64,000 nt of DNA from contig LN717261.1 of the NCBI GenBank assembly GCA_001244265.2, positions 2,557,591 through 2,621,590 on the forward strand, given 5' to 3'. How positions within the stretch are numbered: position 1 is the first letter of the stretch; every line of letters starts with the position of its first letter. The notes beneath the pieces were generated by a model that ran no database searches, was not told where the DNA came from, and saw only the letters and a list, made by a program, of their open reading frames with translations. Of the stretch, positions 19,377 through 51,328 are shown one piece after another. Position numbers and translations under genes: made by a program. This DNA comes from Microbotryum violaceum (taxonomy: Eukaryota).

Positions 19377-19977
19377 TCAAGCCTCGCCTAGCTTCTCGAG
19401 TTTTTCTTGAGCACTCTGCTTGGCCTCCTCGGACACGTTGGGGTTGTGGATCGCAGCTTTGAGACCGCCGGCGACGCGGTGCTGGTGCTGGTCCTCGTCT
19501 GCACCACTTCCACCACCTGCTCCACCACTTGCTCCTTCACCGACGGAGGCCGCGTGCGACTCCTCGAGTTTCTGAATCATCTCTTCGGCGCGCTGTGAGG
19601 ATGAGCGCAACATCGGGTCAGCACATTATCGATCGAGTGTCACTACTGTCAGGAAGAATGCGATCTGCCCATGTCCGAGAGAGAGGCTGAATGCATCTTG
19701 CGGGTCTCCTCGGGCAAGTTCTGCTTGTGGGCGGTGGCCTTGTAGCCACTGAGAACACGGACATAGTCCTTCTCGGCGACGACTGGGGATGTTCAAGACG
19801 CGGTAGATAGGTCAGCACGTTGACAAAATACCTCCGCCCTTCAAGCTCGAGATCGGTTAAACGACGCAAGACTGATACGCTGATGACTGCGAGGGCCCTT
19901 GAAGGGAACTGACTTTGGTCTCCGACCTTCTCCAGGACCTTGTCGCCCTTGACCAAAGTGGTGTGCTCCGCGGACAT
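19377..19977 (-). CDS. con-6: Conidiation protein 6 (Con-6) family hydrophilin with two repeats
   Basis: C-terminal RVAGGLKAAIHNPNVSEEAKQSAQEKL is a typical Con-6 repeat; N-terminal repeat KDYVRVLSGYKATAHKQNLPEETRKRAEEMIQKL. The intron 2 donor reads AT, not GT (see findings). Confidence 0.85.
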
Positions 19978-30111: not shown

Positions 30112-30856
30112 GATGAAGCCGTGCAATGCAAGTCACAAGTCTTTTAACCGAAGCCATCTTAATCGAAATCCATCGGGTGTTTTTCTTTTTGACATCGCGA
30201 GCTTGCCCCATCCGAATGAGACTAAATAGAATACGCGTAGGCCCTGAAAGTTCGGTTCTCAGCGGGTTGAATAGTTTGATGTGATCAGACGGCTACACCG
30301 CACATAATCTTGCGCGTGATACGCGTTCACGAATCGACTCCCTCTGGCCGGGCTCGAGAGCGAGACACGAGCGGCGCCCCACACGTGGTGGCGCGTGTCA
30401 CTTTTGGCGCGTGCAAGTCGGCGGCGGGTTTTCGAGGTGGCCCACGCTCACGCCTACTCTCCTCTCCACCACATCGCACCCACCAAGCTCAACCACTCCA
30501 ACGCACACAAACACCACTCAACTACTACCATACCATGCCCAACCAACCCAACCAGTTCGTTTCCGGTCATCACGTCGTCTAGACCAAGGGGGATGGTTCG
30601 TACGTCGTCAAGGACTACAACAACGTAGGTGGCCCATCTCCGCCCGCTCCACGTCTCGTACTCGTCATACCCGTGGCATAGGCCCGGGTTCTAACTTCTA
30701 GCCAGCAGTGCTGGAAGCCATCTATGATCAGGTGAGCTGACCGATGATGCAGGTTTCGTCCTGACAGGTCCAACAAGGCTACAATGGCTTGTACAATAAC
30801 CCTCAACACGGATCTGAAGGACGTGAGTCGTTTCCCACGTTGCGTGCCTGGGATCC

Positions 30857-33800
30857 AATTTAAAGTTTAAAATCATAATTTCCAGCTAGTCTTGTTCAAA
30901 GACAGAATCTATCAAACGCTAGATCCGCTGGACCACCATAGCATGTCATATCATACACCCATATTGTATATGGGCCATTGCCTCGCTGGGATTAGAACTG
31001 ATGCCCCCATTTCTCAGGGTTTACACCAGTTTTCCCTCCTCCCCCTTGGCTCCCGGCTCCTGAGGGTAGATGGGGCAAGCTTGCCACCCTCGCCTCCATC
31101 AGTGAGGTATACTACTCCATATTCTGTTGGAATGTCCACCACTTCCGCATGCGGCCGCCCCAAATTCTCCCAGTCCCTTTGATCAGCTCATGATGCCATG
31201 CCCGGTCCAGCCGCGTCCGCGATCGCTCGTCTAGAGTCCAGTAGATATCCGGTTTGGGTATCGTTGGCGTCGCAAACCACCACAAATGTGCCCTCACCAG
31301 TTTGGCAGCAAAGGTACATAGCTCCTGTATCTGCAGGTCAGTCCATCCTTGTTGCCGTGCCTCGAGTTCGCTTCGCGTAGCCCGATACAGTTCCTGACCA
31401 ACTTTGTCGCGAAGTTCTTGTCCCGATGGGCACTCTCCAAACGCGTGTTTCTCTGTTTCTTCCTCTGCTCCACATATCACACACTCCGGTGAGGTCCCCC
31501 GTCTCTCTGAACATCGCGAAGCAGTGGGCAGAACATGTGCCCGCATTTGGAGCTGTGTCTGTGCGGCATACGTTGACACTGCGCGAAGATATGGGTACTG
31601 CCCCGCTGAATGTCCGACATTCAATAGGAGTCGAACACTGTCGCCTGTCTTCTTCGGCAACGACTTCAGCTGCCAGTCTTCTTGAAGGTCGTAAATCTTC
31701 TTGCTGATATCGCCTTCCAGCCATTCGATGTTGTTGGCGGTCATTCTAGCGATCGTCCACTGCGGGAGAGCGAAGTCGGGGAAAGGCACAATGAGGTCAG
31801 GCTGTGAACGTCCCTTCTTAGCCGCTTCATCCGCCCTTTCATTTGCACGCGATGCGTCGTCTGTTCGTCCCGTATGAGCTTTCACATGTTGGATTTCGAT
31901 CGTGTGGTTCGTTGCGAGTAAACGTTCGAGCCATGTGTAGTGTGCAAACGCAACCCTCGGTTTCTTCGGTGCAACATCGCCCTGTCTGATCTTCTCGGCA
32001 AATCTGACCGATGTCAGATGATCTGCGAGAACCGGAATTGGTGTAGTAGCCCCGAAATTATGTGATTGTATAGTCAGTGCTGCCATAATCAGGGCTGTCA
32101 CTTCCGCTTGCATAATTGACGCGCCCGCGAACAAAGCTGCCCGGGCTTCCCAATTCGGTCCTACAACTGCTGCGGCCGCGGAAGCGAATCCCGTGGGCAG
32201 GACAATAAGTGAGCCATCTGTCGCCCAAATGTCTTGGGCCTGCGCTTGTCTCATTTTAAGTATGGGAAGAACTACACCCCGAAGCTGATCTTCGACTTCA
32301 GTTTTCCGCTCGGCTCTGCTTCGCAGGAGTTGGACTGGTCCCTCGGCCAAAGTCAGTTCGTCAAAGCGATCCGACCACTGCCGCACCAATCTGGTATTGG
32401 GGTCTAGTCACTCGGTGAAAAGGTCCGGTAGATCTTTCCGCGGTCCTTTCTTGAGCTCCCGTATATCTGTAAGCCGAGCTGGAAGCGCCGCCACTGCCCG
32501 CCGTAACTGTGGTTCGTTCCGCCGAGCCCCTCCTGTCTGAAGGTATGCATGCTCCGCACTGACCATCGAGGTAAGACGGCTTGATTGGTCGGTCTCCAGC
32601 ACTTGCAGCTTCCCGCATTGTTGTAAAGCACGAAGAGCCGTGTTCCACGTCTGGGGGACCTTTCGTTGCGAGTGCAGAAAGGACAGGGGCTTGGGGTCAA
32701 TGAAAGGAGAAATGCAGCCATGGTGTCGGCATTGGAGATCGGCCAGCGTGATCTTGGCCATCGTTGCAAACGCCGGAATGTGATGATTGAGGTCCCGTAA
32801 TAATCCGTCAACCGCCAGTGCCCCGTTTAGTCGCCATAGGCTGGTAAGCTCAAATCCAAACTTGGCGACCGGCAAGGTAACCAGCTTTGCCGTTGGTGTG
32901 AAGACCCATCCATAATACTCCTTTATCCGCTGTGCGACTATTTGATCAAGTCTGAGCGCATCCTCCGGTTGAATTGGGCACAATGCTAGCCTTGGCCTCA
33001 ACCTGCTAATTACTTGCTGTTCTATAAACCGTCGCAGTGCTGAGAGTGGAAGCCTCCTAGTCGATGTGCTAGGAAACCCGAACGAGCGCACAATACTCTC
33101 CAGCTGAGTGTATTGTCGATCTGGTGCTGCAAACGGCGTTTTGAGGAAGACATTTGCCAGGTCGACCGCAACCTGTCGTTCTCCGTGAGGAGTGTTGACC
33201 GTCACCCTTTCTATTGGCGCAACCAGTGAGTCAGTTTCTCCCAAAATAATAGCTCGAGTTTTCGTACCCCAGTCCGTTTGGGCTCCATACGCCTCTTGGA
33301 ATAGCTCCATGTAGAGCGTCATGGTAGCTAGCGTAGCTTCACTCTTCGCTAGCAGAATTGTGTCGTACATTGCGGCTACCTGTGTGACTTTGAGGGTAAG
33401 CTCGTCGGCCTTTGTGTGCGCGCGCCGCCGTGCTCCATTCTGCGTTGTGATGAGAAGAGGTTCATCGAAGACTTGCTCATCCAACCAGTAGGAGCCCATG
33501 GCCATCGCAAGTGAAAACGTGAACGGGTTTGGTGGGTCGCCTTGTTTCATTTGTCCGTCCACTTCAAAGGGGTCGGTCAGGCCGTATGGTGTCTTTATCA
33601 TGAACGAGCCGTGTGCTAACCGCGCTCGATCAAAAGCTTCCGCGTTGGGTCCAAAGCCGAAGAATTCGTAAGCGTCGTATCCGGCTTCGGCTCGCAGCAG
33701 ATCAAAACCCTTCTTTTGATCTCGAATAAGGCCGTAAATAGGGGTCTTTGCTCGAACAGCCCATGCTTCGAGTTGCGCAAGGAAGCTCGTGAGATCCCGC

Positions 33801-36800
33801 TGCTGGACGCCGCTCTGTACCGCGACCTGTGTCTCTGGTATCATGTGATGTTACATTGCATAAGCCTGTGATTGACGTGTGAACCATGCAGCCGCCGTAA
33901 CCGCAAGGAAATCTCCGAAACAAACCGCCCTGTAGTTACTCAATTGGGTGGAGAGACCCCGTTTTTGAACATCGGAAGGAGATAGTGGTCACGCAGCTTA
34001 TCAAAGTAGTTATTCACCAACACATAGTTCAAAAGGGCCAGGAACACGGATATAGCTCGGTCTCCCAGAATTGCCACGGTCCATTTCTCTCATCGATCCG
34101 GTCCGGGGGATGGCTCCCGATTTCCTCTACTGAGCAGCGTTCGGAGGTCACCGAGTGTCAAGGGCTTAGGCCACTCAAATTGGTCCTGCTGTGTTGCATT
34201 ACGGAAGTGTCGGGATCCTTCTGAGTTCATCCACGGCTTAGCCGTCACTGGTTGTTTGTCGGCCTTTTTGAATAAAGTGCTGAAATATTGCCTGAAGGTG
34301 GTACGTACTTCTGTTGGATCCGCGGTAGTATTTCCCCCCGCAGTTTCAACCGCTCGTGGCTGAACCAGTGTTGTCCGCGGCATGAGGATCCTCTTTATAG
34401 ATCCCCCATTAATGACCCTTTGGATTCGGAGATTGTCAGTCCGTTGTGTCATCTCTTTGCGTTCCCGCTTCTCCTGAGCATGTATTCTTTTGCAGAGTTG
34501 TCGACGCCAGCTCATCGCTGTCTCCAGGACTGCGCCTTCGGGCAGATACCAACCAGTGTGTCCTCTATCTTGTAGACGTTGTAGTGTTGCATTTTCTAAA
34601 GCCTCATGCATTTCGTTGAACCATCTCTGTACGTCCTGCTTGTGTTTAAGGATGTGGATAGAATTGGTATTGAGGGCATATATGTACCGGTTCATATGAT
34701 AACGGTCCTGAATCATTTGTCGCACTTCGGGGGATCCGACGAATTGGCGTTTGTTCATTGTTGGGCCCCGCCTCTCACCGAACACCTTCAGAGAAGTATC
34801 GACCAGTAGCAGAGAGAACTCTTTATAGGCAGTGTCCCAAACTTCCTGTGAAGTTACAGCCGCGTCTTCCGATATTTCTTTAAACACTGTACATTGGCAA
34901 CGCCGTCTTCCATGTCTTTCGTGAATCTTGGCCGAGTGTCGCTACCCCTCGGCGGAACTTTTATTCTTCTCGGTCCATCGTCGCCTACTTCGTCACTTAC
35001 GACGCAGAGCCCTGGAAACCATAACCTGCATCTAATTGGCCTGTGGTCAGTGGCCACAATTGGGCGTAAAGCCTCGATGTCCGCATTCCCTGTCGTTACG
35101 GAAGTCGCAAGCCGGTCTATGACGCTCGTGGTTTACGCGTTCCCGTAGAGCTTGTGTGTCCGACTTTCGGCGAGCGCCAGTGATTCCAACTCGTTCCACA
35201 CATCGTGGCCATCAGTTTGACGTAGGAAGCGGCAGTATTCGAGCGCAGTTGGTCGGAGTCGCGGAAGATTAGTCGCGGCTGTTTCCCGAGCGTCAAGTAC
35301 TGCATTGAAATCACCTACTACCGCCCAATTTGGTGGGCCGGTTCGTATGAGGTCTTGCATAGCGGTCCAGAAACCCGTGATGGCGTTGTCATCATTTTCT
35401 GTGTTGCGCGCATAACCTCCGTGTGGGCAGTAGGCGGACACGATACGAATTGGGACCATATCTGTGCCTTCCCTTGTTCGTACGAGTATGTCAGCGGCGG
35501 CGACTCGTCCTACCAGTGGTCCTTCAGTGATTATGAAGGACTTTAGTATCGGCAGGTTATTGCGGACCAGAAGGAGGGTTCCCCATTTCATTCCCGAACC
35601 AGCCCGGACGGAGGGTGTAAGGATCGGCTGGAAATCGGCTAAGTCAACCGGTAGCCGTGTGTCCGTTCGGAACTTGAGCTCATTTAGACTGACGACATGG
35701 TATTCTGAGTTGATTAAGGTCTGTTGCACTTGTTGGAGCTTCACGGGGTCTGCAAGTCCGTTCACGTTGAGGCTTGCGATAGAGATCGGAGTTGCTGCGT
35801 TAACACGATTTTTATCCAACACAAGGATGAGAAGGAGGATGATACTTCTTGTCGGGGCTGATATACTGTGAAAATTGATTGTTATTGCAAGAAGGAAATA
35901 TGTGCTGAGTGTATGGAGAAGATGAATGTGATTTTGTTTTCGGGGTTCGATGTCTTCGTTTATGGGTCCTGCGGCCATAAGCAGCACCTCATCAGACAGA
36001 GTTCGAGAAGAGAATAGGGATTTTGTTTGGGTACTGACAATAGACATTCCTTCCTCGACACGACGTTCTGTCCCCATGACACTTGAAACAAGACTCCCTT
36101 CCCCATCGGCGCCACGTGCGTGGTGAGTGAGACGTCCACGCTTACTGGGCGAGCCTCCAGGTTCATCGCGTTCTCTCGTCGGCGAGTTGTTCGTGGTGTT
36201 AGCTTCGGTTGGTGTCGAAGCATTGTTGGCCAGTCGTTGTTGATGAAAAATGGGGTTGGCGTTCTGAATGGCTAGGTTGGTTTGTTGTAGGGTTTGCTGA
36301 TACATAAGCTGCGCCTCCTTGACTGCCTGTTTCGCCACTTCGATCTCTTCTTTGATGTCGTAGTACTCCTGACTATTCTTGGGGTGGGAAAAAAGTTGCA
36401 TCCTGAGGTCACTGAGAACTTGGTTGGCCGAAAAGACCCCGAATTGTGCTTGTGACGTCATTTGCACGCCCGCCATTCCCGCGTAAAGTGATTGATTGTT
36501 CATCTGGAGCATGTGCAGCGCTTCCTGACATTCTTGGTGGCGTTGTTCAGCTCTGCGCCTGTCTTCGGAATAGATTGTTGCTATGGTGTGTATAGAGTCT
36601 TGGATGAGGTCGATGCGATTCTCAATCTGTCGTGAAGTTTCGGCGGCCAGTCCTTGCGAGTCGGATGTTACTCTATTGAAGCGGGCTGAGATGGCGTCTG
36701 CACGTTCGCTGTCGAGGCAGACCCTGATCGCTACGCGTTGGTCTCCATCGTGCCAGCAAGTCGCGTGTCGATCAAAAGCGGGCAGTGTGGGAACCATTTG

Positions 36801-39360
36801 GACCAACTACGACGCGAATGCGGACGTGGAGATCGAAAATCGGAAGACCGCTTTTTGATGTTGGCCCGTTCCCGTCGCGGGCTCGTAATCGGTAGTGACA
36901 ATGGCGCCCTGCGGTCGTGTAATGGGTTCCTGGGGGTAATCTTGTTCGTGTCGCTTCTCTGCTTCGGCAAGGCATTTCATTGTGTAGGTCGCGACACTTT
37001 GGGGGTCGCTGTTGGATTTTGCCCATAAGACCACGATCGCGTACGGCTCTTGCATCCCCGTTTAAAGACACCAGTGATAGTATGCTCGACCAGAAGCGGT
37101 TCCATCTTGTTGTTTGCTTGTGGAGCCAGGCGCGACATGGACCGAATTGGGATATTTTTATTGAGCCTTGTACTAAAAGTAGATCTGGCTTTTGACGCCG
37201 TGATCTTATCCACCATTGTGGAGCCTGCCAATCGAACTGCGACCAGGACCTTGCACTGATCATGCCGAGCGTTTGATTCAGTGGTGATGGAGATACAGGA
37301 TTCGGCCGGGACATCGAGCATGTCCTCGAAATGCTTGTCGATGTGTGCTTTCACCGCCTTGCGAAGCAGATCCTCAGGGGCTCGCTCGATGACTTCGAAA
37401 CCATCTTTGCCAGAGTGTCGTTGCGCGTCGAAAGCTAAGCGAACATATCTCACAACGTCATTTTCTTTTGTGTCCGTAAAATGAGCGAAAAGACGAGGCC
37501 ACACATTGCCATCTTCGTCCAGCAGTGGGGAATCGAACGTTGACGGGCCTGCTTTCTTCAAGAATTGAGCCATTAAGAGATGAACTTGAGGGTTGAATTG
37601 TGGCGGTACTTTTCTCCACTCACGGTAGAGATTAGCGTTGAGGAAATCATGTATTTTTGTGGTGAAACGGATGTCGTTTTCGGGCCCGACAATCTCGAAG
37701 TAGTCGGTATGGAGAGCCTTGTACCTTGATTGTGGAGGATCCGACAGGCCCGTAGGGTAGCCGATCTTGTGTGACTCGAAGAAGACTGGTTGGTCGTTGG
37801 GGCCAATCCCGGCCGTGGAGAGGAGGTCTTCCAGGGTGGCCTCAGCCGTTTGCTTCGATATGTCACCGGAAATTGCGGGAAGGTTAGAGATAATGAGCCT
37901 GTGCGGGAGTGGTTGAATGTTGCGGATCGGGGTACCGTCGTTCTCGACGAAAGGTTTTGGGACCATTGTAGGGTACGAGAAGCCGTATTGTGGAAAAGCA
38001 AGTGAGAGCAGAAGATGGAAAAGCGAGGCTCGAAGGAGGTGTAGCGTCTGCGGCCTTATTCCGGAAAAATGCGTGAATGTCGGAACCAAGTCACTTCCGC
38101 ATGATGACGTGATCGGTTGTTGGTATGGCGTGCTCGAGTTCGGGATCTGACCGGAGTAAGTTTTCTCAGGCAAGGCCGGGACATAAACACCGGGCCCAGC
38201 GCAGGGTATGGGGTTAGAAGAGACAGGGAAGTGAATTGTAACAGGTCTCAGGTTTGGGATTGGATGGGGAAATTGGCGTTCCTCAATAGATGGAAGTATC
38301 GTAGGCGTCGAGGAAGTATTGTAGGTGTCGAGTAAGTGCATGGTAGTATCAGGCAGAGTACTGGGCCAGCGAAGGTCAGCGGAAGAGTAAGTGTTCATTG
38401 AAAGCGTGCGGAGGACAGGGGCGGGTTGCAACAATTCTTTGCAATAGTTCGTCATTCTCTTATGTCGTGGATCGATAAAGGTGTTCACATTTTTACAGGC
38501 GAGTGAAAGGGGGGTCTCCTATCCTGTCCTTTTCCGGGCGCAAAAAAACAGTATCCGGTATTGGCTCCTTCTCTGGGTCGTTACGATGAGAAGTGGGTTG
38601 TAACATATCACTGTGAGGAATTCGATCGGAGTCCAAATGTAATAGAAATGAGGATTGCTGAGGTCATAGGGCTGAGTTAGTGGGTTGGTTGGGCAGTTCG
38701 GTAGTTGATTGGAAGCATTGCGTCCGTGCGATGTTCGTCGGATTAGGAGGAGCGGCTTGGAGGCTAGCGAGGTTTTGCAAAACAGGTGGTGAGGTATGGG
38801 GGGGGGGGGGGGGGGGTTCAGAGTAGTAAGATGGGTAGATATGGTGGGAAGCATAGCGTCTGTGCAGAGCTCGTCGGGTTAGGAGGAGCGGCTTGGAGGC
38901 TAGCGGGGTTATGTAATGCAGGTGGGGATGTGGGAAGAGGTATATGTGCTTGAAGAGAGGGTGAGTGAGCTCTAGGTCATAAGGTGGAGAGAGATAGCAC
39001 TCGTCATTTCTAGAGGAGGTTCTGTCTACACCATCCGTATGGGAGCCTCCATCGTCGCGTTGCCTAGATCGGCAATGGGGGTGGGAAGGCACCATGGCTT
39101 GCAACCATGTGTGAGAGAACGACCATTCGATTACTTTAGGAACGATCGAATGCTGTTGATATGAATTCCTGAGCCGGCGGGTGGCCCAAGGGGTGTCGGA
39201 GGCGGGGGCATTGTCGATGCGGACGCACAGACTGCGAGAACACGTGTGACGTGGCGCGGGATGTGCATTTGTTAAGGTTGTTGACGGAGGTGGAGGTTAA
39301 CTTAAGGTAAGGTAACGGTACGGTACGGTACGCGGTACGGTACGGTAAGGTAAGGTAAGG
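30857..39360 (-). mobile_element. Non-LTR retrotransposon (LINE): ORF1-like region, APE endonuclease, RT, RNase H and zinc finger; degenerate
   Basis: APE motifs SIASLNVNG, SLNE, GDFN, IDR, TDH (~35780-35040); RT PGPD, RDQKKGFD, QGDP, AAMYD (~34110-33350); RNase H TDGS...AEV...HVKAH...NERADEAAK; CVIC...H...C finger; several in-frame stops and frameshifts; ends approximate. Confidence 0.93.
38711..38910. repeat. Two ~64-bp direct repeats flanking a G19 tract in the LINE 5' region
   Basis: ggaagcattgcgtccgtgc...aggaggagcggcttggaggctagcgaggtt at 38711-38774 recurs at 38847-38910; poly-G at ~38798-38816. Confidence 0.85.
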
Positions 39361-39361
39361 T
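39303..39361. repeat. (GGTAA/GGTAC)n pentamer array at the LINE 5' junction
   Basis: taaggtaaggtaacggtacggtacggtacgcggtacggtacggtaaggtaaggtaagg. Confidence 0.9.
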
Positions 39362-39759
39362 TCTCTTGTGAGCCCGAGAGCTCACGCGCTCCTGATATCT
39401 ATCGGATCCGTCAGTACGCCCAAGCGCAAAGTCACCAGTTGTCGCAACAATACTACCAGCGACATCAACAAGGTGGTAACTCGTCCGGTCGCAAGTGAGG
39501 AATCCCCATTCGTTGCGCTTCGTTGCGACCGGCGCAAGGTCGACCAAGTCATACGTTCAACTCGCACGTGGTGAGGGTTTTGAAGGTCAGGGAGTGTCGT
39601 TTTCAAATGAATTTGATTGAAGTGCAGTGAAATCAGTTGATTCGATCATTTACTCGTGTGTTCACCTGAGAGGGGACGTGCTGGAATAGAGAGCATTTCC
39701 GGGTGACCCCTCCTTGAACAGGAGAGCTTCGGCGGTCAAGCCAACTCAATGTCACGGTG

Positions 39760-42700
39760 TGGGGCTGAGAAGGCGGAATCTGGTGCACACTGTCTCTGAA
39801 TGAGAGTAAAGGTGGGCCGATCCAGAGACCCGAGAAATGAGTTCCGCACTATGCCCGTTCACTACTCGGTGTTGGTGCTCAGGAGCCCCAAGTCCGTAAT
39901 CGATTTCCGGAACCGCGTGCTGCAGCTGGGCCTGGAGATCCTTGCCAGAAGTGTTTCCTCACCTCATCGGTATTAAAGTTCAGGAGAAGCAACGGAATAG
40001 GGTCGGATACGCTTAGGCCGAGGGAAATAGGGAGAAGGTGATGCGCGTGATGGCGTCATTGCCGCGGTTAGCTGCATCGCCATTAAACATGGAGCTGCGC
40101 TGTGAAAGGCGAACCGCGTTACAGAGTCCATTCTTTCTATAAGTCGTCTGGTATGATGACACAAGAGAGCTTAGCTCATGCTTTAGCTCACGACCACCGC
40201 ATAGCATGGAGCAGCAGCAATGACGACGCACATACCTCGAAATAGGGGTGTTGGCCCGTCCACGCGGACGTGAACTCGGAAGCGCCGAGAGCAAGCCGTG
40301 GGAGTCGCTAGTTCAGTAGACACTAGTCGGGCAAACGAACCCGCAAATCACTCGCTTCCCCGACGCACGCCATTCAATGCTCTCACCTCTCTCAAGACCC
40401 AGCAAGCTTTCTTCTACCTCTCTACAACCCTCAGCCAAATGCGACCACCGCAAGTTTCCTTCCCCAGCTCACCTGCTCAACTGAACTGCCCAAGATGCCC
40501 AAGAATCAACACGTCTCCGGCAACAACGTCATCCAGACGAAGGGTGACGGAAACCAGGTCACGAAAGACTACAACGCTGTAAGTCACTGCCGACTATTCG
40601 AGCCACTTCAATTCGACCGACAGAGTGGGCTAGGCTCATGCTTTGCCCACCTTTGCTGGCCTCACACCAGGTCATCAATGGCTAGAAAGACCTTTTAAAT
40701 AACCTCCAACAACCTCAACGAAAAGACGTGAGTCTTTGAGCAGCTTGACGAGAACTTTCGGGGAGCTCGGGCACGAGCTCATTCTAAATCCACTGCATTG
40801 CCGCATTAGAATACCACTCCCGTCATGTCACTTCAATCGAGATGACCACAACTGTCGCTATATCACGAGACGCTCAAGCCATCAGAGGTATCACACCACG
40901 TCAGCCCTACAGAGGCGTTGAGGTACGAGACTGTCAGCTTCCATGAACTCGCCGTCAGTATGACTGGCTGGCTCATCGAGCTGCCATGCGATGTCATCAT
41001 GAATCCCCCGGCACGTCAAGCTCATAACGTGCACCTCCAGTATCGACCTGTAGATTCCGAAGGGAGTTGTCCTCGACGTCCTGCCATCAGTTCCACGCTC
41101 ATACAGAGTCAAGGCCTCACCGTCCATAACCTCTGTACTGTCAAGCCTCGACTAGTCGCGCGATTGCAGTGGAGCTTTGGAACTAAGGCGTGTCCCCAGT
41201 CATGCTGCCAAAGGGCACGCCTGCTAGGGCACTCTCAGTGAATCCCAGGCAGTAGGAGCTCGCAAACTGTCTACGTCGCACCCAGACTCGCTTCTCGTGC
41301 TGTAACATGGCGTGTCCCCAGTCATGCTGCTAAAGGGCACGCCTGCGGTGCTAGTAGGCCTTGTCTCACTGAATCCCAGATAATGAAAGCTTGCAACCTG
41401 TCTACGTCTCACCCATACTCGCTTTCCGTGCTGTAACATCAATCGTCCAAATTTCTACCTCGTGACCGTTGTGGGCACAGGCACATTCGCATCCTGTCTG
41501 TAGTAGCACTGACAAAAGCGAGCGAGTGTCCTGCGACTGGCATGCTAGTCGCTGGACAATTTATTCCCACGGCCAATTGCACCATCCATGTCCAAGTATC
41601 AGTCACGTGAGATTCCAGTCTTGTTCATCGGCGATGGAACGCTCCTCGCTATCTTCGATGGCGTTGTCAGGTTTAAGAGGACTGCTTCGATCGGCATACC
41701 TGTGAGCGGTCCCGAGATACTCGTCAGTGACTGGGCGATATTCAGTCGTTACCTGCCAGACATATCCAACGACATCCGGTCTCGCCGCAATCTCATCGTA
41801 CTGCGCGATCTTCAAGTCAAGTACAAGGGCGGCGACGTTTAGTCGTGGGGTATGAGCTACTGGTGTCCCTGCCAGTGCCCTGGAAAAACTGGTTTCTGCT
41901 TCTGGTTGATCACAGTACGCTCAGCGTTTAGGCCAACCCAAAACAACGGAGACAGGTCTCGGGGCTGAGACGGCGGCCGGGATTCTCGGTGCACACCTCG
42001 TGACTCCCTCTGAATGAGTCACGGTAGTTGACCAATCCAGGAAAAGCCGGATATAAGCTGAAAAATGATTCTCATCCTGCCTGTTCGCTACTTGGTGTTA
42101 ATGCTCAGGAGCCCCGAGTCCGCGGTCGATTTCCGGAACCGCGTGCTGCAGCTGGGCCCGGAGATCCTTGCTAGAAGTGTTTCCTCACCTCATCGGTATT
42201 AAAGTTCAGGAGAAGCAACGGAATAGGGTCGGATACGCTTAGGCCGACGGAGATAGGGGGAAGGTGATGCGCGTGATAGCGTCATTGCCGCGGTTAGCTG
42301 CATCGCCATTGAACATGGAGCTGCGCTGTGAAAGGCGAACCGCGTTACAGAGTCCATTCTTTCTATAAGTCGTCTGGTATGATGACACAAGAGAGTTTAG
42401 CTCATGCTTTAGCTCACGACCACCGCATAGCATGGAGCAGCAGCAATGACGACGCACATACCTCGAAATAGGGGTGTTGCCCCGTCCACGCGGACGTGAA
42501 CTCGGAAGCGCCGAGAGCAAGCCGTGGGAGTCGCTAATTCAGTAGACACCAAACGGGCAAATGAACGGGCAAATTACTCGGTTACCCCACGCACGCCATT
42601 CAATGCTCTCACCTCTCGAGAAACAGCAGGCTTTCTTCTTCCTCCCTACAACCCTCAGCCAAACGCGACGCCCTCAAGTTTCACTCCCCCGTCCACCCGC

Positions 42701-43060
42701 TCAACTGAACCGCCCAAAATGCCCAAGAATCAACACGTCTCCGGGAACAACGTCATCCAGACGAAGGGTGATGGAAACCAGGTCACGAAAGACTACAACG
42801 CTGTAAGTCACTGCCGACTATTCGAGCCACTTCAATCCGACCGACAGCGTGGTCTAGGCTCATGCTTTGCCCACCCTTGCTGGCCTCACAACAGGTCCTC
42901 AATGGCTATAATGGCCTCTACAACAACCCCCAACAACCTCAGCAGAAGGACGTGAGTCTTTGAGCAGCTTGACGAGAACTTTCGAGGGACCTTCGGTTCG
43001 AGCTCATGGTGTCCCGCACTGGGAACACTCCTGTCGGCTTCTGGTTGATCACAGTACGCT
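39760..43060 (+). repeat. Tandem segmental duplication (period ~2.2 kb) carrying Con-6-like copies B and C
   Basis: ~39880-40760 is nearly identical to ~42105-42990; ORF-track pairs 39973/42199 and 40013/42239 differ by a few residues. Confidence 0.93.
40495..41940 (+). pseudogene. Con-6-like microgene copy B
   Basis: Exon1 40495-40578 encodes the same peptide as copy C; exon2 40671-40727 has TAG at 40683; ~1.1-kb insert in intron 2; exon3 from 41916 diverges after YAQ. Confidence 0.85.
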
Positions 43061-43138
43061 CAAGCTCAAGCTCATCAACTCGGTCAACAGTACCACGCGC
43101 AGCACCAAGGAAGCAACTCGGCTCAGGGAAAGCGTTGA
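42719..43138 (+). CDS. Con-6-like microprotein copy C, intact, 74 aa, Q/N/G/Y/H-rich
   Basis: Exons 42719-42802, 42895-42951 and 43055-43138 with phase-0 GT-AG introns: MPKNQHVSGNNVIQTKGDGNQVTKDYNAVLNGYNGLYNNPQQPQQKDYAQAQAHQLGQQYHAQHQGSNSAQGKR*. Confidence 0.88.
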
Positions 43139-45398
43139 AAGATGAGCTTTGGCTGCGTCGATATTCGGAGTTGGGTTAAGTGGGCGTCTCAGACGTGGCA
43201 TCGACGAATGTGAAGAGGAGTCAGGGGTTTCGTTTCCTAAGCTTTTGTCCGGTCCCTTGCTGCAATGGACCGGGTTTGACTTTCGAAATATTGACAACAT
43301 AATCTCTCGACGTTGGGGCCTGCGGTATAGCGTATTTGCTCGCTGAAGGGTGACCAAGGACTGTGCACCAGTGGTGATCATGTCGTGCGCGCACTCGAGA
43401 ATCGCCGAGCGCGACGACTGGGCGAGCGTTTTCGCTGTGTCATTGCACACACCTTCCGATTTAGCATCTTGCTGCACCAAAACACCACATGCAATGTTTA
43501 ATCAATCGAAAAGCCCTTTTTGTGGCCAATCCAAAATTTCATTTTTGACTACAGCTCCACCTATGGGCGAGCTGTTTGTAGACGAGCCGTAGGCGGGTGA
43601 GGCTCTACGGTTTGGGCCCGCGCAAGGGGAACAAAACCCCTGACTCGTTTTCGTCCGTTCTCCCCACATTTCCTCTCTCTGTCCTCGGCTTCCGACTTTC
43701 TCCTCGATCGAGAGCGCTCTCTTTCGGACTTTGCGCCGCGGACCCCTCCTCTCCATTGGAAAATACGTCTTTCACATTCCACAACCAGTCTTCCAGCAAC
43801 TTCCAATTTGTTCCAACTCGGCCTGTGATACCGGAAGCACGATCCTCGAAAAAGAGGCCAACGCGACTTGTCGTAGCTTTTGTTCTATGGGCTTCAAAAA
43901 GGTTTTATGGAGGGGGGTATAAAAGGACGGAAGAGGACGAACGCCTCTCTCCCTCCTACCATTCACTGCTTCTGCAAGCTCGCTCCAAAAGCCCGCGGTT
44001 GTCCTTCCCCCTTACCTTCCTCGAGAACGCTAGGTCCTGTACCTCGTCCTCGAACTACACCTCCACAGCTTGCGGGTTGTCTTGTCCCCCAAGACCTCTG
44101 ACGAGCCAGCATGCTTCTCCCAGTCGCCTCGCACACCACCTCATCGCTCTGCCAGCCCAACTACACTCGGGTGAGTACCCTCATGTTTATCACTGGGTCC
44201 CTGCTGCCGTGAATCATGGCAGTACCGCTTGCTCTCGAGCCCCGATCATACGTGGTGGCCAACCTGCTTGTTCGACGGCGCTCTTCACCCGCCCGCCTGC
44301 CTAATCGGTAATCGGTAATCGGTAAAGAAAATGGGTTAATGCCGCGAGCAAATGGTGCAATTACAATTTACGCGCGCGCGTTTACCCTTCAATCAATGAA
44401 GACCGTAAGCGTGCCTCTCTTTTCTCCAATCTCCGATCCCACAACGCCGACGTCTTTCTCCTGAGCGAAACTGGCCGACCTTTCCCGGAAAGGGTGGCCC
44501 AGTGGACGCAGGAGTGCCAAGACTTGAGCTCTCCGCTCTTTTCACTCCTTTCAACAATACTGCCATACTATGGAAGAGCGACTCCGTGGTCATTACTATT
44601 GATCCCGAGTCGCCTCCCAACACTCAGCTTCGTGCTTCTTTCTCTTTCCCCGGACCGAGTCACCGACGCCACCTTTCTTGTGGGTGATTCAAAAGTCCGG
44701 GTTGTATCAATATACCGAAGCTTGACCTATCTACCCCGGTACTAGTAAGGTGCAAAGTTCACTTACAAATGGTGCATTCTTCGCGCAAGCTGGTGCGTTT
44801 GCTCCCGAAAAAAGGTGCGTTTACCAATTAAGGATGGTGCATCTACCACGTAGCGGGGCAATCCGCTGTATCTCGTATAGTATGCCATGTATCACCCTGA
44901 AACTTGACGAGCCCTCTTACATGACCACGAAGTACGTCCACCCTTGGTAAGAAGCACTCTCACCCGGATCTCATGTAGTTGAAAATCGTGCCCGTACTCG
45001 GGCCCCCGCCCACGGGCTCGACGAAGACCCCCAGGCATCGAATATTCACTCTTTCTTTTACTGGGTACTACAACGGGTCAGGTGATCCGATCATGCGTGT
45101 CAGTGCCCAAGCAAAGTAGGCCCTGCATCCACTGCACAGCCGCGCATCGCCGCCAGCGACCTTGCTCAATTTTGTCTGGGTGCACGTAGCCTGCTTGACC
45201 CGTCGCGTCGCGCCCAACGCCTACTTCTACTTTCTACTCATGTTCACCGCGCCACGCCAGTTCCTGCCATCCGTTGCCATCGACCGATACTCGCCTTGGT
45301 TCCAAAACTCGTTTCGCATACGTCATCTCCAGTCATCAGATGAATGCAACGCTCCAGAATAAGGGTGGCCCCCCCGCATTGGGACCCAACCAATCGAC

Positions 45399-47320
45399 AT
45401 GACCAGCCCACCTGCACGTGGCACCTCCCAGATATCCTCGACTACGTCTACCCAGAAGAAAGACTTGGGCCAGCGGGAACCCGATATCATTGACCAATCT
45501 CCCTCAGTGACGCACTCCAATCAAATCTCAATGACTCCTGAAAGCTGCTCCGACGATGTCGACTCGAACGCCGACTCAGACCCCGCCGTCGACGACTCCG
45601 AAGCCAGCTCCTCCGATGGCGGCGAAGAAGCCATGGATCGACTGCGCCAAGTCGTCAACCTCCTCGAAAATTGTGCACCCAACCATATACCGCTGGAGTA
45701 TGACACAATGCAAGCCAAACGTCAAGCGATCATGTCGTCGAACCGCCTCTGGTCGGCGGAAGAGAAAGCCGTCTACGGGCAATGGCCGCTGATTCATGGC
45801 GACCGAAGGAAAGCAGATGAATGGACGCTCAAGGACACCATACAATTCTCAAGCTTCCTTTGTACATGGCTACCGAAGTATGTCGATACTGGTTCCAAGC
45901 ATAAGCAGTCACTGATGGCTAGTTGAAGTTGCTGATTAGGACGCAAAACTGACGAAATTATTCCTCACCGATCCTCCTCCTATCCTTCATTGGCGAAACC
46001 AACCGGAACAGGAGCACGAATAAATAGCCTGCAAATAGATTTTGCCACTTGTTTGAAGGTGAGAGGGAGAAGCGACTTGTGTGGATCCCGCTTACCTGAT
46101 AGGCTGACTATAATCCGCCGAGCTGATGATGATCGCAGAACATCGTTGCTTTCCTCACGGCTCGGGCAGAAGGACCCATCCCTCGTGTCACCGGAGGCAG
46201 TGACCGGCCCACAATCCCGTACGCAGAGCGGGACCGAGTGATCGTGAAACCGCGAGCACCGAAGAAGGTAGACTTGATGCCTAGGTCAAAGTTTATGCGA
46301 CAGCCCGATGGCAACGCTTGCGGCGTCTTCATTCGTCGAACGATGGAAAATTGGTCGCGGCGGTTGCGTTTCAGTCTGAATTAGACTGGAGCTGGAGCCC
46401 AACTCAAGCCACTACAGGACAACTTATATGCTGACCAACGCGCATACATGTCAGACGTTGTTATTCATGCGCGCTTGCGGTGTGACACGGAGTTGGAAGC
46501 AAATTCTGACCCCCCTCCCCTCGATTTGCGAGAGGCGACTGGAGCTCCTCCGCCGGTTCCCGGTCAGTCATTCTACTGTTGATCTCAACGATCTGATCTT
46601 AGTGATAGTTCAAGCTTGCTTGATATTGAGGCCGACACTTGTGTATGCAGAATCTGTACCACTCGCGCTCAAGGAGAGTTCGCCGGAGCTCGAAGAGAAG
46701 CCCTTGGGATCGCCCGGCATTGAAATTTCCGCGCCTACCCTTGTTCTGATTGACCCTTCGATCGGCACAATGTACACCTCTGAGTCCAATCCCGACGCTC
46801 AATGTACTGCTCCGTTGATTTCGCGAAGCCAGCGGCCCAACCCGGCACCATCAATTGCAACGATTGGTTCGATGCCAGATGCGCCGCCGATGAGAATCCA
46901 GAGGGTCGTAATGTTCGACCCTACCAACTCTCTGCCGGTGTCTGAGGCACTCGAGGTCGTTGCTTGCTTGCCAAGGTATCAAACACGTACATTGGCCGTT
47001 CGGTCAATTGCCGCTATATCCACAAGCACCCTAAGCCCTCGCCGATTCAAGCGCAAGAGGGAAGAATCCTTTTTCAACGCTGCGCGGCTTCGCTGAAGCT
47101 GAAGCCTTGCACTCAATGCCGGGCTCGCAAGATGAATCTGATGTTGGAGTCAATTCAAGGTATGGGCTCTCCCAACCTGCATCGGATCCTTCCTTGTCAC
47201 CAGAACACTCACATTGGTCATGGTTCATTTGGAGCAGCTGCAAGAAGAGGAATGAGGTCGTCGATCCTAAGCCGTGCCATTATGAGTAGAACGGAAGGAT
47301 GTATATATATAATGATATAA
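45399..47320 (+). CDS. Probable spliced cargo gene of unknown function inside the TIR element
   Basis: 175-aa ATG ORF with acidic low-complexity N-terminus ending near a GTATGT donor, then exon-like open segments up to the 46428-47096 ORF; no motif recognised. Confidence 0.4.
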
Positions 47321-47491
47321 TGATCGCGGCTAGTGACATTTGCGAGAACACTTGGTGATGTGCTACTAGCTTTTTTAGGACAGGTTCACGGATGGTTTGG
47401 AAAGGCAGTCAATGATCTTCCTTGTCCGTCAAGTTGCTGAGGCAGGAAATACGGCGAGGAATGCTATACAAAGTGTCGCACCCCATATGGT

Positions 47492-47692
47492 CACATCCAG
47501 CAGCTCCGACATCCAGCAGCTCCGACATCCAGCAGCTCCGACATCCAGCAGCTCCGACATCCAGCAGCTCCGACATCCAGCAGCTCCGACATCCAGCAGC
47601 TCCGACATCCAGCATCCAGCAGCTCCGACATCCAGCAGCTACGACATCCAGCAGCTCCGACATCCAGCAGCTCCGACATCCAGCAGCTCCGA
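47492..47692. repeat. 16-bp minisatellite (GACATCCAGCAGCTCC) x ~12
   Basis: Direct tandem copies with one shortened unit; explains the repetitive ORFs on both strands. Confidence 0.95.
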
Positions 47693-48093
47693 GATGATTG
47701 ATCATCTTAGTCATTGTATTGCAGCTTAGGGTGGGGGGGGGGGGGGGGGGGGGCTACTGGCTCGGAACGTCGACTTGTCGAACTACGAGTCCTCTTCTTT
47801 CACTCGATCTGGAAGCTCTGTCGCCGTCGCCGATTCTCGTCGGATCTTTTGGAACCGATCACCGAACGTGACGGACTTCGAGGGGCTTCGAGCCTCTATT
47901 CAGGAGTCCAAGGGTCGCCTAGTGTTTCTGTAAGCCACCACTGCAAAGGGGGTCTTAGTGGGTATGGTTGATCCTGGTTTAGGGTCAATGAATCCTACAC
48001 TACTAGCTTCTGCCAGTGTGCGTAACAGCATTCCCTCCGACTTTTCCGAAGATTTCTAGTTATGCGGTTAATGAAGTCTATCAAATAAAAAAA

Positions 48094-49339
48094 GAGAAAA
48101 GGACAAAAATGCCCTCGAAAGATAGCGAAAGGACGAAAATGCCCTCGCTTCTTTTCATGAGGACAGAAATGCCCTTCTCTAAGGGACCAAAATGCCCTCG
48201 GATTCTCGACTTCTGTAATACTTGGTATATCAGCTCATAACCAAGAGGGTAGCTTCTTGTAGTCGTTGTGATCAGCGCCGTATACTCAGAATCCCCAGAG
48301 ATGCCGTGAGAATTCATATATCACGGTTGCAAAGTCAGGGCCCTATCGCGACTGAAGCGAGTCCAAGTCGAAAGCGAGCGATGAGTATAGACCGAGTGAA
48401 TTCCATATGAAAAAGGCCAGCAGTAGAAGCATTGACAGTCTTGACGCCTTATGCTCAGATTCAAATGGTCTATCTATAACTCGGTTGTGTCCGGGGCCTT
48501 TGCAGAGACCACAGATCGTGTCGCGCTTGGACCTCTCGTCCGCACCCCGGATCCTGCGTTTGATCGGACGTATAGGCTTGGAGAGATGTGACGGAATGAT
48601 AATGACACCCTCTTCTTCGCCAGTTGAGTCACTATCGTCCACTTCACCATGACCTCATGACGCTCACGAGGAAGACGATGCAGCTTCCATTCGGCCCGAG
48701 ATGGAACAGGTTGGAGCGGTGTCGCGTAAGTCTGCTCTTGCTGTCGCCGGTGTGCAGCAGCTATCGGTGACTGTGGGCTTCATTAAAGACAATGATGGTC
48801 CAAACACTGCATTCTCCTTTGGAGACAGCAGTGGCAGAGAAGGAGCACGGAGGATCTTGGACACTCTTGCTCACGACGCGTGTCAGACTTGCGAATGTCG
48901 AACTGAAACTGGTGATCAAGCGCATATTGATGGCCCGCATCTGTGAGCTCCTTCTAGAGACTTCCCCCTCCCTGAAAGAATGTTCCATTGTCGAAAGTCG
49001 GTGGTGACTTCGGGGTCGGGGCGAGAATGCGGAAGGTGGCCAACGTCGATTCGCGAACTCGCGCGCCTCAACGCGTCGACGATCGATGAGGCCCCCTGCC
49101 TTTGCGACCGTGATAACTGAATTCTCACGGCATCTCTGGGGATTCTGAGTAAACGGCGCTGATCACAACGCTACAAGAAGCTACCCTCGTGGTTATGAGC
49201 TGATATACCAAGTATTACAGAAGTCGAGAATCCGAGGGCATTTTGGTCCCTTAGAGAAGGGCATTTCTGTCCTCATGAAAAGAAGCGAGGGCATTTTCGT
49301 CCTTTCGCTATCTTTCGAGGGCATTTTTGTCCTTTTTTC
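48094..49339 (-). mobile_element. Non-autonomous Mutator-like element (MULE) nested in the TIR element
   Basis: ~230-bp near-identical TIRs (48094-48317 and ~49117-49339) with G...C ends, TAAAAAAA on both flanks (8-9 bp TSD), and an internal remnant CGLCKGPGHNR like the C-terminal zinc knuckle of MuDR transposases. Confidence 0.88.
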
Positions 49340-49732
49340 TAAAAAAAAAAAAAAAATCGGTCCGGGGTTCCGGACGATGGCCGCTGGGACGAGAGCTGGG
49401 GTGCAGGCACGATTTCCCCCGATTTCCAACGAAATTCCTTTTTCTGTTTTTCCTTTTTATTTTGTCGCATCGAATATAAGCGCGCGACAAAAGAGAAAAA
49501 AAGACGAGATGGGAATAAGTTTTTTCGGGAGCAAACGCACCAACTTGCGCGAAGAATGCATCATTTGTAAGTGAACTTTGCACCTTACTTACCGGGGTAT
49601 GGGTCAAGCTTCGGAGGTAAACGCGCGCGCGTAATTTGTAAATGCATCATTGACTCGCGGCATTATGTATGGATGCTCCTCTCGTTTCTCCTTTGTGCCT
49701 TCCCGCCCTCGGTTCCTCCGCCGACGCTCCCA

Positions 49733-50372
49733 ATGGCTCGTCGACCCCCCAAGGCCCAAATCGTGAGGGAGTACTACAACGGCAAGTTCGTCATTCAGGT
49801 CAGGGATGATGGTACTGTCACGGAGAAGAACTACAACAATGTGAGTCGGGATGATGATTGCCAACAACGTGAACTAATAAACAAGCCGGTCGGGCCTTAT
49901 GGGACTGGTTATAGTGAGAATGAGAATTTGAATTCCAGCTAGTCTACAAAGAGACGACCCTTATCGGGCGCTGGACCACATTAACTGGGCTATCGTCTCT
50001 GACCTGACCTACGACTTCCACCGCTGGTTATAGTGAGACGCCGGGGAGTCGGCGTGTTCGGCCGGAGAGAGGGTTCACACGCTGTCCCTGCCTCGGGCTT
50101 CACAACAATTCTGAGTCGCTCTCCTCATCGCCCATATAAAAACTAACTCATTCTTCCCTACGTTGTTGATTCCTTCATACAGGTCATCCAAGGCCTGAAC
50201 GGCCTTTACAAGAACCCCAAGTTCCCCGAGATGAGAGATGTCAGTACCGAGCCGGCCGAGCCCCTTGCCTATAAATGGAGAAATTCTTATCTTCTCTTCG
50301 TTGTCCCCGGCCCTACAGGACGCTCAAGATCGGATGTACCGCCTCGCGATGGACTATTATCGATACCACTAG
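49733..50372 (+). CDS. Con-6-like microprotein copy D, intact, 72 aa
   Basis: Exons 49733-49840, 50183-50239 and 50319-50372: MARRPPKAQIVREYYNGKFVIQVRDDGTVTEKNYNNVIQGLNGLYKNPKFPEMRDDAQDRMYRLAMDYYRYH*; same intron positions and 57-nt middle exon as copy C. Confidence 0.85.
49920..50023 (-). mobile_element. 104-bp 5'-truncated LINE/SINE-like insertion with 15-bp TSD
   Basis: CTGGTTATAGTGAGA is duplicated at 49905-49919 and 50024-50038; the insert shares TTCCAGCTAGTCT and CGCTGGACCAC with the LINE 3' end at 30880-30937. Confidence 0.85.
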
Positions 50373-51328
50373 AGACGTTCTTCGAACACAAAACAACCCC
50401 GACCGAGACGGAGGATGCGCTGAGCACACACACACCAAGAGAAGACTTTGATGGATGGAACCCTTGGATTAGGTCGAGGAGTTGAAGGATGGCTGTTGGG
50501 GTGGTTGGAACGAGCAAGATGCCGAGACTGTCGAACGTATAGTAGGTCGAGAGGATTCGAGTTATTCGAAGGATCTCGAACTAGTCCCTCCATAAAAACG
50601 AGAGCAAAACCCTAAAGACATACAAGGCGATTTCTTCAAAGGCGCTCATTAAAGAATAGAAGTTAGAGAGATGGTGTATGTGCATGTGGAGTTGCAGTTG
50701 ATCGGTTTGTTGGCTTTCCAGTCAGAGCTCCCAGCGCAACAGAGGCTTTCGAAGCTCAAGACGTGGAGCCTGGGAAATGAAAGACGGGCACGAGGCTCGT
50801 CAATAGGATGATAGACGATTGATGATAGTTGCGAATGAAATCACACGAAAATTCAGACGTAAAATGCTGAACAAGGAGCGAGACTCTAGCTCACTTCAGG
50901 AAACGTTAATCCGAAGCCTGGAGAACCTGCTGCGATCAAGACGACTTTGAACAGACTACCTGATCAATCATGAACCGAGCGCCAGGTTTGGGACGCTATG
51001 TATCTCGCACTGAATGACACTTCAGTCAGCACCGTTGGGAGAGCGAACGGGGAAGTCAGACTAAGAAGTAAAGTGTTAACCATGCGCTAAACATACTAAC
51101 AAGCTAGTGACTTGTAAGGCCAGGGCAAGATTTATAAAGCAAGAATATCTTCCATTTAGCCTCAGAAACAGAAACAGGAAACAAAACCTAATAAAGTCTT
51201 CAGACTCTTAACCACGCACCGCGACATTCTATGAACCCGGTTTAAATTGAGGCGCAGGCTTCTCCATCTTTCTCCTTCCTCAACTGCGCTTCAGACCTTA
51301 CCCATCGCACCTCATCCCATCGCCACTC

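What the first reader, a model, noticed from the sequence alone, without database searches (positions are those of the whole stretch)
30857..50038. Related LINE sequences inserted antisense into introns of two paralogs of the same microgene family
Seen: an 8.5-kb LINE sits antisense in intron 2 of copy A, and a 104-bp piece with the same 3'-end motifs and a 15-bp TSD sits antisense in intron 1 of copy D. Copy B has a third, unrelated ~1.1-kb insert in intron 2. I saw no insertions in the many housekeeping introns of the window. Inference: either targeting of spore-expressed chromatin, which would give the element a heritable niche, or just relaxed selection in a TE-rich block.
Basis: partly seen in the sequence, partly recalled or inferred. 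Interest (0 to 1): 0.7.

Follow-up and report, generated by a model that had tools for sequence, protein, structure and literature searches.

The report
Dead LINE copies in decaying gene cluster
Two insertions from related LINE retrotransposons do sit backwards in introns of a tiny anther-smut gene family, but two of the four gene copies are already dead and the block lies in a transposon-rich, non-recombining mating-type region, so this looks like ordinary decay rather than targeting.

Summary
An 8.5-kb non-LTR retrotransposon (30857-~39360, minus strand) lies antisense in intron 2 of copy A. A 104-bp piece (49920-50023) with a perfect 15-bp target-site duplication lies antisense in intron 1 of copy D. 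The two share only a ~55-nt 3'-end module. Copy B carries an unrelated 1.08-kb insert.

The targeting reading is not supported. Copies A and B are pseudogenes, while the A-type orthologues in two other Microbotryum species are intact. All repeats in the window lie between 30.7 and 54.3 kb. Named protein hits and gene order place the window on M. lychnidis-dioicae scaffold 71. Perlin et al. [quoted passage not shown] The LINE 3' module is in many contigs genome-wide.

The family is not Con-6 by Pfam or hhalign; a real Con-6 gene lies at 19.4-19.8 kb. Copy C is induced at the teliospore-forming stage in published data.

A genome-wide census of insertion sites could not be run. The best explanation is ordinary target-primed insertion retained under relaxed selection. 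Interest is low.

The parts
30535..30624 (+). Copy A exon 1, with an in-frame TAG where the orthologues have Gln16
30768..30822 (+). Copy A exon 2: 55 nt against 57 nt in copies C and D, which puts exon 3 out of frame
30857..39360 (-). Defective full-length-class non-LTR retrotransposon inside intron 2 of copy A (intron 30823-39414). The right-hand (5') boundary is approximate and no TSD was found.
30880..30936 (-). LINE 3'-end module: the 13-mer and 11-mer shared with the copy D piece. They form the two strands of a stem that closes two small hairpins.
   Evidence: Covered by 17-20 contigs in each of the three DNA runs.
31112..32407 (-). LINE RNase H and zinc-finger part, separated from the RT part by one in-frame stop
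32408..33964 (-). LINE reverse-transcriptase part. No Pfam hit of its own; 30-36% identical to 2113-2349-aa LINE proteins of other basidiomycetes.
35022..35798 (-). LINE apurinic-type endonuclease part, in a different reading frame from the RT part
36977..38518 (-). LINE upstream ORF of 513 aa with no family match
39415..39497 (+). Copy A exon 3
40495..41933 (+). Copy B pseudogene: TAG in exon 2, and exon 3 similar to copy C only for about its first 8-10 nt before the next tandem unit begins
40783..41861 (.). 1079-bp insert in intron 2 of copy B, unrelated to the LINE. Its flanks form an imperfect 8-bp repeat. The spanning contigs have single-copy depth.
42719..43138 (+). Copy C, intact, 74 aa, no insert. 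It corresponds to MVLG_05353 by position and by its exact 420-bp length.
43770..49760 (.). Nest of repeated elements between copies C and D, including a foldback element at 48093-49340
49733..50372 (+). Copy D, intact, 72 aa. The spliced product is identical to MVLG_05352.
49905..49919 (.). Left copy of the 15-bp target-site duplication
49920..50023 (-). 104-bp LINE-tail fragment, antisense in intron 1 of copy D
50024..50038 (.). Right copy of the 15-bp target-site duplication

Best explanation
Two separate target-primed reverse-transcription events, by related but not identical LINE lineages, left one long defective copy and one 104-bp 5'-truncated tail in a small Microbotryum-specific gene cluster. 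They persist because selection there is weak. Copies A and B are pseudogenes. [quoted passage not shown] The short antisense piece in the still-intact copy D is simply tolerated inside an intron.

Shown here: the anatomy, the gene lesions, the repeat island, and the match to the published scaffold. Inferred: the insertion mechanism, the neutrality of the insertions, and the order of events (which came first, the LINE insertion or copy A's point lesions).
For: Pseudogenes. Copy A has a TAG in exon 1 and a 55-nt exon 2, where copies C and D have 57 nt. Copy B has a TAG in exon 2 and a truncated exon 3. A-type orthologues are intact in M. saponariae (76 aa) and M. intermedium (79 aa).

The LINE is dead. 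Its homology runs through three reading frames and one in-frame stop.

TPRT signature. The piece has an exact 15-bp TSD, and the last 4 nt of the TSD match the hexamer unit of the element's tail.

The family is abundant. 19, 20 and 17 contigs cover position 30912 in the three DNA runs, and 11, 16 and 13 contigs with unlike flanks start at 49915.

Repeat island. Summed depth is far above the unique flanks across 43770-49760, and all 9 intra-window repeat pairs lie within 30764-54222.

Genomic context. Copy D's product is identical to MVLG_05352. 10 of 10 Pfam landmarks follow the order of scaffold 71 genes MVLG_05348-05366, reversed. All these genes are labelled NRR in Additional file 11 of PMC4469406. 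That paper gives a TE content of 41% for the NRR and 9% for autosomes. PMC4379399 reports high TE content, weak expression and gene losses in these regions (passages).
Against: Three inserts in the 8 introns of a 4-copy family, and none detected in the neighbouring housekeeping genes, is a striking local pattern. The one family member with published differential expression (copy C) is induced at the teliospore-forming stage, as the targeting idea would require. Copy D is intact yet carries an insert. No genome-wide distribution of the family could be examined. No empty-site allele was seen, so the age and polymorphism of the insertions are unknown. The window is not base-for-base the published scaffold (spacings differ by roughly 0.05-1.5 kb), so the NRR label is carried over by synteny.
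Confidence: 0.8

Rival explanations
1. Targeting. This LINE family's endonuclease or RT complex prefers chromatin or DNA at genes that are active during teliospore formation, so members of the microgene family are hit repeatedly. That would give the element a heritable niche.
For: There are two related insertions 19 kb apart, both in introns of paralogues and both antisense. Copy C of the family is expressed only in the late in-planta sample: 28.58 against 0 and 0.
Against: The sample is two insertions, and both being antisense has a chance of 1 in 4. The two target sites share no motif, by my reading. Copy A is a pseudogene, so 'intron' may have had no meaning when the LINE landed. Other unrelated repeats fill the same island. 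The true Con-6 gene at 19377-19792 shows the same induction and carries no insert. The locus is in a published non-recombining, TE-rich region.
Confidence: 0.05
2. The 104-bp piece is not a truncated LINE. It is a member of a short non-autonomous (SINE-like) family that borrows the LINE 3' module for mobilisation.
For: Only the last ~55 nt resemble the copy A LINE, and nothing upstream of the 11-mer aligns. The 3' end is covered by 17-20 contigs per DNA run, and summed depth in the bin holding it is several-fold that of the LINE body. 11-16 contigs per DNA run share the copy D-type end.
Against: There is no tRNA, 5S or other small-RNA head: 0 ARAGORN genes and 0 Rfam matches. Other contigs leave the copy D-type sequence at different points (49951, 49986, table 5c), which suggests variable 5' truncation rather than a fixed 5' end. 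REPET reported no SINEs in this species (Table 2 passage). A second LINE subfamily with the same module explains the data equally well.
Confidence: 0.15

Closest known systems
5'-truncated ('dead on arrival') LINE copies made by target-primed reverse transcription
   Same: The piece is a short fragment holding only the element's 3' end. It is flanked by an exact 15-bp target-site duplication, with microhomology between the target and the element's tail.
   Different: The tail is a hexamer repeat rather than poly(A). The parent of the copy D piece is a different subfamily from the full-length copy in copy A.
Stringent-type LINEs that recognise a structured 3' end followed by a short tandem-repeat tail, and the SINEs that share that end (eel UnaL2/UnaSINE1; recalled, not read here)
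   Same: There is a conserved 3' stem closing two hairpins, with a variable sequence in one hairpin. The copy D-type tail is a short tandem repeat. Short copies far outnumber long ones.
   Different: No experiment or covariation statistic supports the structure, because only two sequences were available. No SINE head was found.
Fungal non-LTR retrotransposons with endonuclease, RT and RNase H domains (Tad1-like; the Deceiver and Inkcap clades of basidiomycetes are recalled, not tested)
   Same: The domain order is endonuclease, RT, RNase H plus zinc finger. Relatives occur in basidiomycetes.
   Different: The RT is too divergent for Pfam RVT_1. Relatives encode a single protein of 2100-2350 aa. 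Clade membership was not tested against reference elements.
[quoted passage not shown]
   Same: The locus maps to a scaffold labelled NRR. It shows a high local TE load, pseudogenes, and intact orthologues in other species.
   Different: Those papers give genome-wide statistics. This particular cluster and its insertions are not described in the passages I read.
Con-6 (conidiation protein 6, PF10346)
   Same: Both are small proteins with a G-x6-NP-like motif. Both copy C and the window's true Con-6 gene are induced late in planta.
   Different: There is no significant sequence match. The family was found only in Microbotryum.

Membership tests
Non-LTR (LINE) retrotransposon | Apurinic/apyrimidinic-type endonuclease domain | tested here: met
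   PF03372, E 4.2e-7, 30.4 bits against a cutoff of 24.5, on 35133-36806
Non-LTR (LINE) retrotransposon | Reverse transcriptase domain | tested here: inconclusive
   The window's RT piece has no Pfam hit. It is 30-36% identical over about 900 aa to long LINE-like proteins. One of the 4 relatives tested hits RVT_1 weakly (E 0.0015, below cutoff).
Non-LTR (LINE) retrotransposon | No long terminal repeats | tested here: met
   Self-blastn and the repeat search find no terminal direct repeats, only an internal 136-bp tandem pair
Non-LTR (LINE) retrotransposon | Target-site duplication of variable length | tested here: inconclusive
   Met for the 104-bp piece, with 15 bp exact. Not found for the 8.5-kb copy.
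SINE | Small-RNA-derived head (tRNA, 5S or 7SL) and a fixed 5' end | tested here: not met
   0 tRNA genes and 0 Rfam matches. The fixed 5' end could not be tested without the genome.
Con-6 (PF10346) | Match to the Con-6 profile | tested here: not met
   No hit at E<=10 for 8 exon translations, for P0001 or for 4 family members. The window's real Con-6 gene scores 3.7e-19. hhalign of the family against that gene gives E 0.14 and probability 0.4%.
Site- or chromatin-specific LINE (targeting) | Insertion sites enriched in one target class against a matched background | not testable with these tools
   No genome is held. The read-laying run shows many copies but not where they lie.

The most novel reading that the evidence does not exclude
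This LINE family, recognised by a conserved Y-shaped 3' RNA module, integrates preferentially into genes whose chromatin is open during teliospore formation, the stage that leads into meiosis. Small late-induced genes such as this family would then be recurrent landing sites, and insertions would enter the germ line efficiently.
Probability: 0.04. Interest if true: 0.6.

Novelty: new member of a known kind. Interest (0 to 1): 0.17.

Why it matters
Read as decay, this locus is one concrete, gene-level example of how a non-recombining mating-type region degrades. A lineage-specific gene cluster has lost two of four copies to point lesions and transposon insertions, while the same genes stay intact in relatives.

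It also flags a LINE 3' module with many short copies in a genome whose published TE annotation lists no SINEs. That could be useful for TE annotation and for dating strata. It does not open a new mechanism.

Tried and rejected
- Metagenome scan for the two-block 3' module: 0 matches.
- Earlier findings of this scan: nothing for this genome or these sequences. A word search gave only unrelated genomes.
- Empty-site alleles: none of the 15 joints shown by read laying skips the LINE, the 104-bp piece or the copy B insert. 19 joints and 2095 contig pieces were not shown, so this says nothing either way. Contigs identical to the window cross the LINE's 5' junction in X1 (39249-39929) and X10 (39249-40254).
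- Expression from public runs: no RNA holder was listed. X18 is only guessed to be RNA, and I drew nothing from it.
- TSD of the 8.5-kb LINE: not found. The shared 6-mer at 39404 lies 44 bp outside the insert. The sequence between contains a motif conserved in the introns of copies A, B and C, so I rejected it as a TSD.
- blastn at E<=0.01 did not link the LINE and the 104-bp piece. MAFFT misaligned everything upstream of the module.
- PDB sequence searches of the microgene profile and of a LINE relative: 0 matches.
- Rfam and ARAGORN: nothing.
- Literature searches: 'MVLG_05352' gave 0 papers. 'Microbotryum' with 'non-LTR' gave 25 papers, of which 12 were listed, and none of those titles or abstracts concerns LINE target choice (listing only).
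- The Betacoronavirus viroporin Pfam hit (2 of 4 family members, best E 0.0045): rejected as noise.
Full report
**What is there**

The + strand between 30.5 and 50.4 kb carries four copies of a three-exon microgene.
- Copy A has exons at 30535-30624, 30768-30822 and 39415-39497.
- Copy B starts at 40495.
- Copy C spans 42719-43138.
- Copy D spans 49733-50372.
- Copies B and C belong to a tandem duplication with a 2224-2226-bp period, 90-95% identical.

tblastn with three database family members finds the family at these four places only. Two weak, sub-significant matches elsewhere (E 0.02-0.05) are set aside.

**The 8.5-kb insert**

Intron 2 of copy A runs 30823-39414. Minus-strand ORFs fill 31112-38518.

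Pfam recognises 2 of the 5 ORF pieces. It finds an Exo_endo_phos endonuclease on 35133-36806 (E 4.2e-7), and RNase H (1.5e-8) with zf-RVT (3.8e-4, below cutoff) on 31112-32407. The putative RT piece and the 513-aa upstream ORF get no hit.

The RT piece has 12 relatives at E<=1e-5 among the 7998 candidates scored. They include proteins of 2113 aa (Phenoliferia), 1827 aa (Termitomyces) and 2349 aa. Of the 4 relatives I scanned, 3 carry the endonuclease domain. One hits RVT_1 weakly (E 0.0015, below cutoff).

tblastn of two relatives shows the homology passing through frames -3, -2 and -1. The ORFs 32408-33850 and 31112-32407 abut at an in-frame stop. This copy is therefore defective.

There are no terminal repeats. 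The left end (the element's 3' end) is at about 30857. I placed the right end at about 39360, next to a GGTAA/GGTAC microsatellite. Beyond that point the sequence resembles the second half of intron 2 in copies B and C. No TSD was found.

**The 104-bp piece**

Exact 15-bp repeats at 49905-49919 and 50024-50038 flank 49920-50023, inside intron 1 of copy D.

On the same strand as in the LINE, the piece holds an exact 13-mer (30880 / 49933) and an exact 11-mer (30926 / 49969). Exact copies of both occur only at these two places in the window.

A gapped local alignment scores 47.5. Random window segments give a mean of 22.1, an sd of 4.6 and a maximum of 41, and 0 of 3969 reach the observed score. 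Under stricter scoring the margin is thin, 26 against a maximum of 25 in 2974 segments. blastn did not report the match.

The similarity is confined to about 55 nt. Upstream of the 11-mer nothing aligns.

Folded as RNA in the element's sense, the two blocks pair with each other in both sequences. They close two small hairpins, one of which differs in sequence between the two. For the LINE end, z = -2.1. The copy D piece as a whole folds no better than its shuffles (z = 0.35). With two sequences this is a suggestion, not a test.

**The family elsewhere in the genome**

No genome is held, so I laid Logan contigs from three DNA runs and one possible RNA run on 30450-50400 at 85% likeness.

Position 30912 is covered by 19, 20 and 17 contigs in the three DNA runs. 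Their summed word depth in X1 is 6246. Contigs of the unique flanks have depths of 75-83, and the summed depth per bin across the LINE body is 137-503. The tool warns that summed depth is not a copy number, so I read this only as 'many short copies, few long ones'.

At 49915, 11, 16 and 13 contigs with mutually unlike flanks begin. Their loose-end consensus continues the hexamer seen at the piece's end, so the copy D-type tail is a short tandem repeat. The last 4 nt of the TSD match its unit, as expected for priming by microhomology.

Single-depth contigs split between the two places (30902 to 49925, 30935 to 49915). I take this as a hint that other copies are intermediate between the two. Other contigs show internally deleted LINE copies (30937 to 36771, 31152 to 38045, 36284 to 38057).

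**The third insert**

Relative to copy C, copy B has 1079 extra bases (40783-41861) between two conserved intron motifs. An imperfect 8-bp repeat sits at the junctions. The insert has no similarity to the LINE. The contigs that span it have single-copy depth.

**State of the genes**

Copy A has a TAG where the orthologues have Gln16. Its exon 2 is 55 nt, where copies C and D have 57 nt, so exon 3 falls out of frame. Copy B has a TAG in exon 2, and its exon 3 resembles copy C's only for about its first 8-10 nt. Copy C (74 aa) and copy D (72 aa) are open.

**What the family is**

Three searches found the family only in Microbotryum:
- a word-indexed search with copy D exon 1;
- a full HMMER search of 1.84 billion representatives with the 72-aa protein, giving 8 hits at E<=0.001;
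- a profile search, giving 3 hits.

D-type proteins occur in M. silenes-dioicae, M. saponariae, M. intermedium and M. lychnidis-dioicae. The last, MVLG_05352, is identical to my spliced copy D model. A-type proteins are intact in M. saponariae (76 aa) and M. intermedium (79 aa).

The other 6 HMMER hits are long bacterial or animal proteins. The strongest are Bartonella YadA-like adhesins, which match a 22-aa core (50% identity) nine times over. I treat this as a curiosity.

There is no Pfam family at E<=10 for 8 exon translations or for P0001. Scanning 4 full-length members gives only a viroporin hit, which I reject as noise. PDB gives nothing.

The window does hold a true Con-6 gene at 19377-19792 on the minus strand (E 3.7e-19 and 1.1e-4).

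**Context**

Outside 30.7-54.3 kb the window holds ordinary genes: S9, a kinase, L21e, ATP synthase h, a flippase, an AP mu subunit, NIF3, acyl-CoA oxidase, an exosome RNase PH subunit and GluRS. 14 of 99 ORFs have Pfam hits, and none is TE-like. All 9 intra-window repeat pairs lie within 30764-54222.

Across 43770-49760, summed depth is far above that of the unique flanks in every run. That stretch includes a foldback element at 48093-49340.

In Additional file 11 of Perlin et al. 2015 (PMC4469406; I read part 1 of the file), scaffold 71 lists MVLG_05348 to MVLG_05366 in exactly the reverse order of the window's 10 Pfam landmarks. Its Con-6 gene, MVLG_05358, falls where I found Con-6. MVLG_05353 is 420 bp long, exactly the length of copy C. 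MVLG_05354 falls roughly on the LINE's endonuclease ORF. Copies A and B are not annotated.

[quoted passage not shown] The paper gives a TE content of 41% there and 9% on autosomes (passages). Fontanillas et al. (PMC4379399; abstract and passages) report high TE content, weak expression and gene losses in these regions.

Spacings between genes differ from the window by tens to some 1500 bases. The window is therefore another assembly or haplotype of the same locus, and the NRR label is carried over by synteny.

**Expression**

Additional file 24 of the same paper (header and two rows read) lists MVLG_05353 (copy C) at 28.58 in the late in-planta sample and 0 in both in-vitro samples (FDR 3.7e-4 and 5.7e-4). 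That sample is one in which teliospores form. The Con-6 gene reads 17.92, 0.44 and 0. MVLG_05352 (copy D) is not in that table. So 'spore-stage induced' is plausible for copy C only.

**Verdict**

The simplest account is two ordinary LINE integration events, plus one unrelated insertion, kept in a decaying cluster in a recombination-free, TE-rich region.

Targeting cannot be excluded without a genome-wide census, but nothing here calls for it. There are only two insertions, they share no target motif, one host gene was or became a pseudogene, and unrelated repeats fill the same island.

No paper among those I searched describes LINE target preference in Microbotryum. One search returned 158 papers, of which 15 were listed. 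One search returned 25, of which 12 were listed. I read these as listings, plus passages of three papers. bioRxiv supplements were not available to me.

Noticed in passing
window 19377-19792 (-): A genuine two-repeat Con-6 gene (PF10346, E 3.7e-19 and 1.1e-4). By position it corresponds to MVLG_05358, which is published as induced in the late in-planta sample (17.92 / 0.44 / 0). It carries no repeat insertion.
   Followed up: partly
window 52888-54222: A 1335-bp near-perfect palindrome with arms >=99% complementary around a 67-nt spacer, lying between copy D and the acyl-CoA oxidase gene. It may be a foldback element or an inverted duplication. It may account for part of the extra length relative to the published scaffold.
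   Followed up: partly
window 48093-49340: A foldback or TIR-like element with 248-nt arms 97-99% complementary. The bin just to its left and over its left arm (47766-48431) has the highest summed contig depth of the stretch laid.
   Followed up: no
window 47489-47711, 38797-38816 and 47732-47755: A 16-bp minisatellite of a dozen units, and two long G runs, one in the LINE's 5' region and one beside the minisatellite.
   Followed up: no
window 44337-44813 and 49520-49665: Inverted copies of one repeat family. The second lies only about 70 bp upstream of copy D's start codon, so copy D's promoter region is partly repeat-derived.
   Followed up: no
P0001 residues 23-44 against P0003 (Bartonella YadA-like protein): The conserved core of the microgene product matches a unit repeated nine times in a bacterial trimeric-adhesin-like protein (11 of 22 identical; HMMER E 2.1e-18, summed over 9 stretches). 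It could be chance, convergence or a shared short structural motif.
   Followed up: partly
window 39300-39360: A GGTAA/GGTAC pentamer microsatellite sits exactly at the LINE's 5' junction. In run X10, five contigs of very high depth match it, so the motif is common elsewhere.
   Followed up: no
P0013 (M. saponariae, 1686 aa): An annotated protein that joins Ty3-type domains to a stretch 82% identical to this LINE's RT region. It is probably a gene model fused across nested elements.
   Followed up: no
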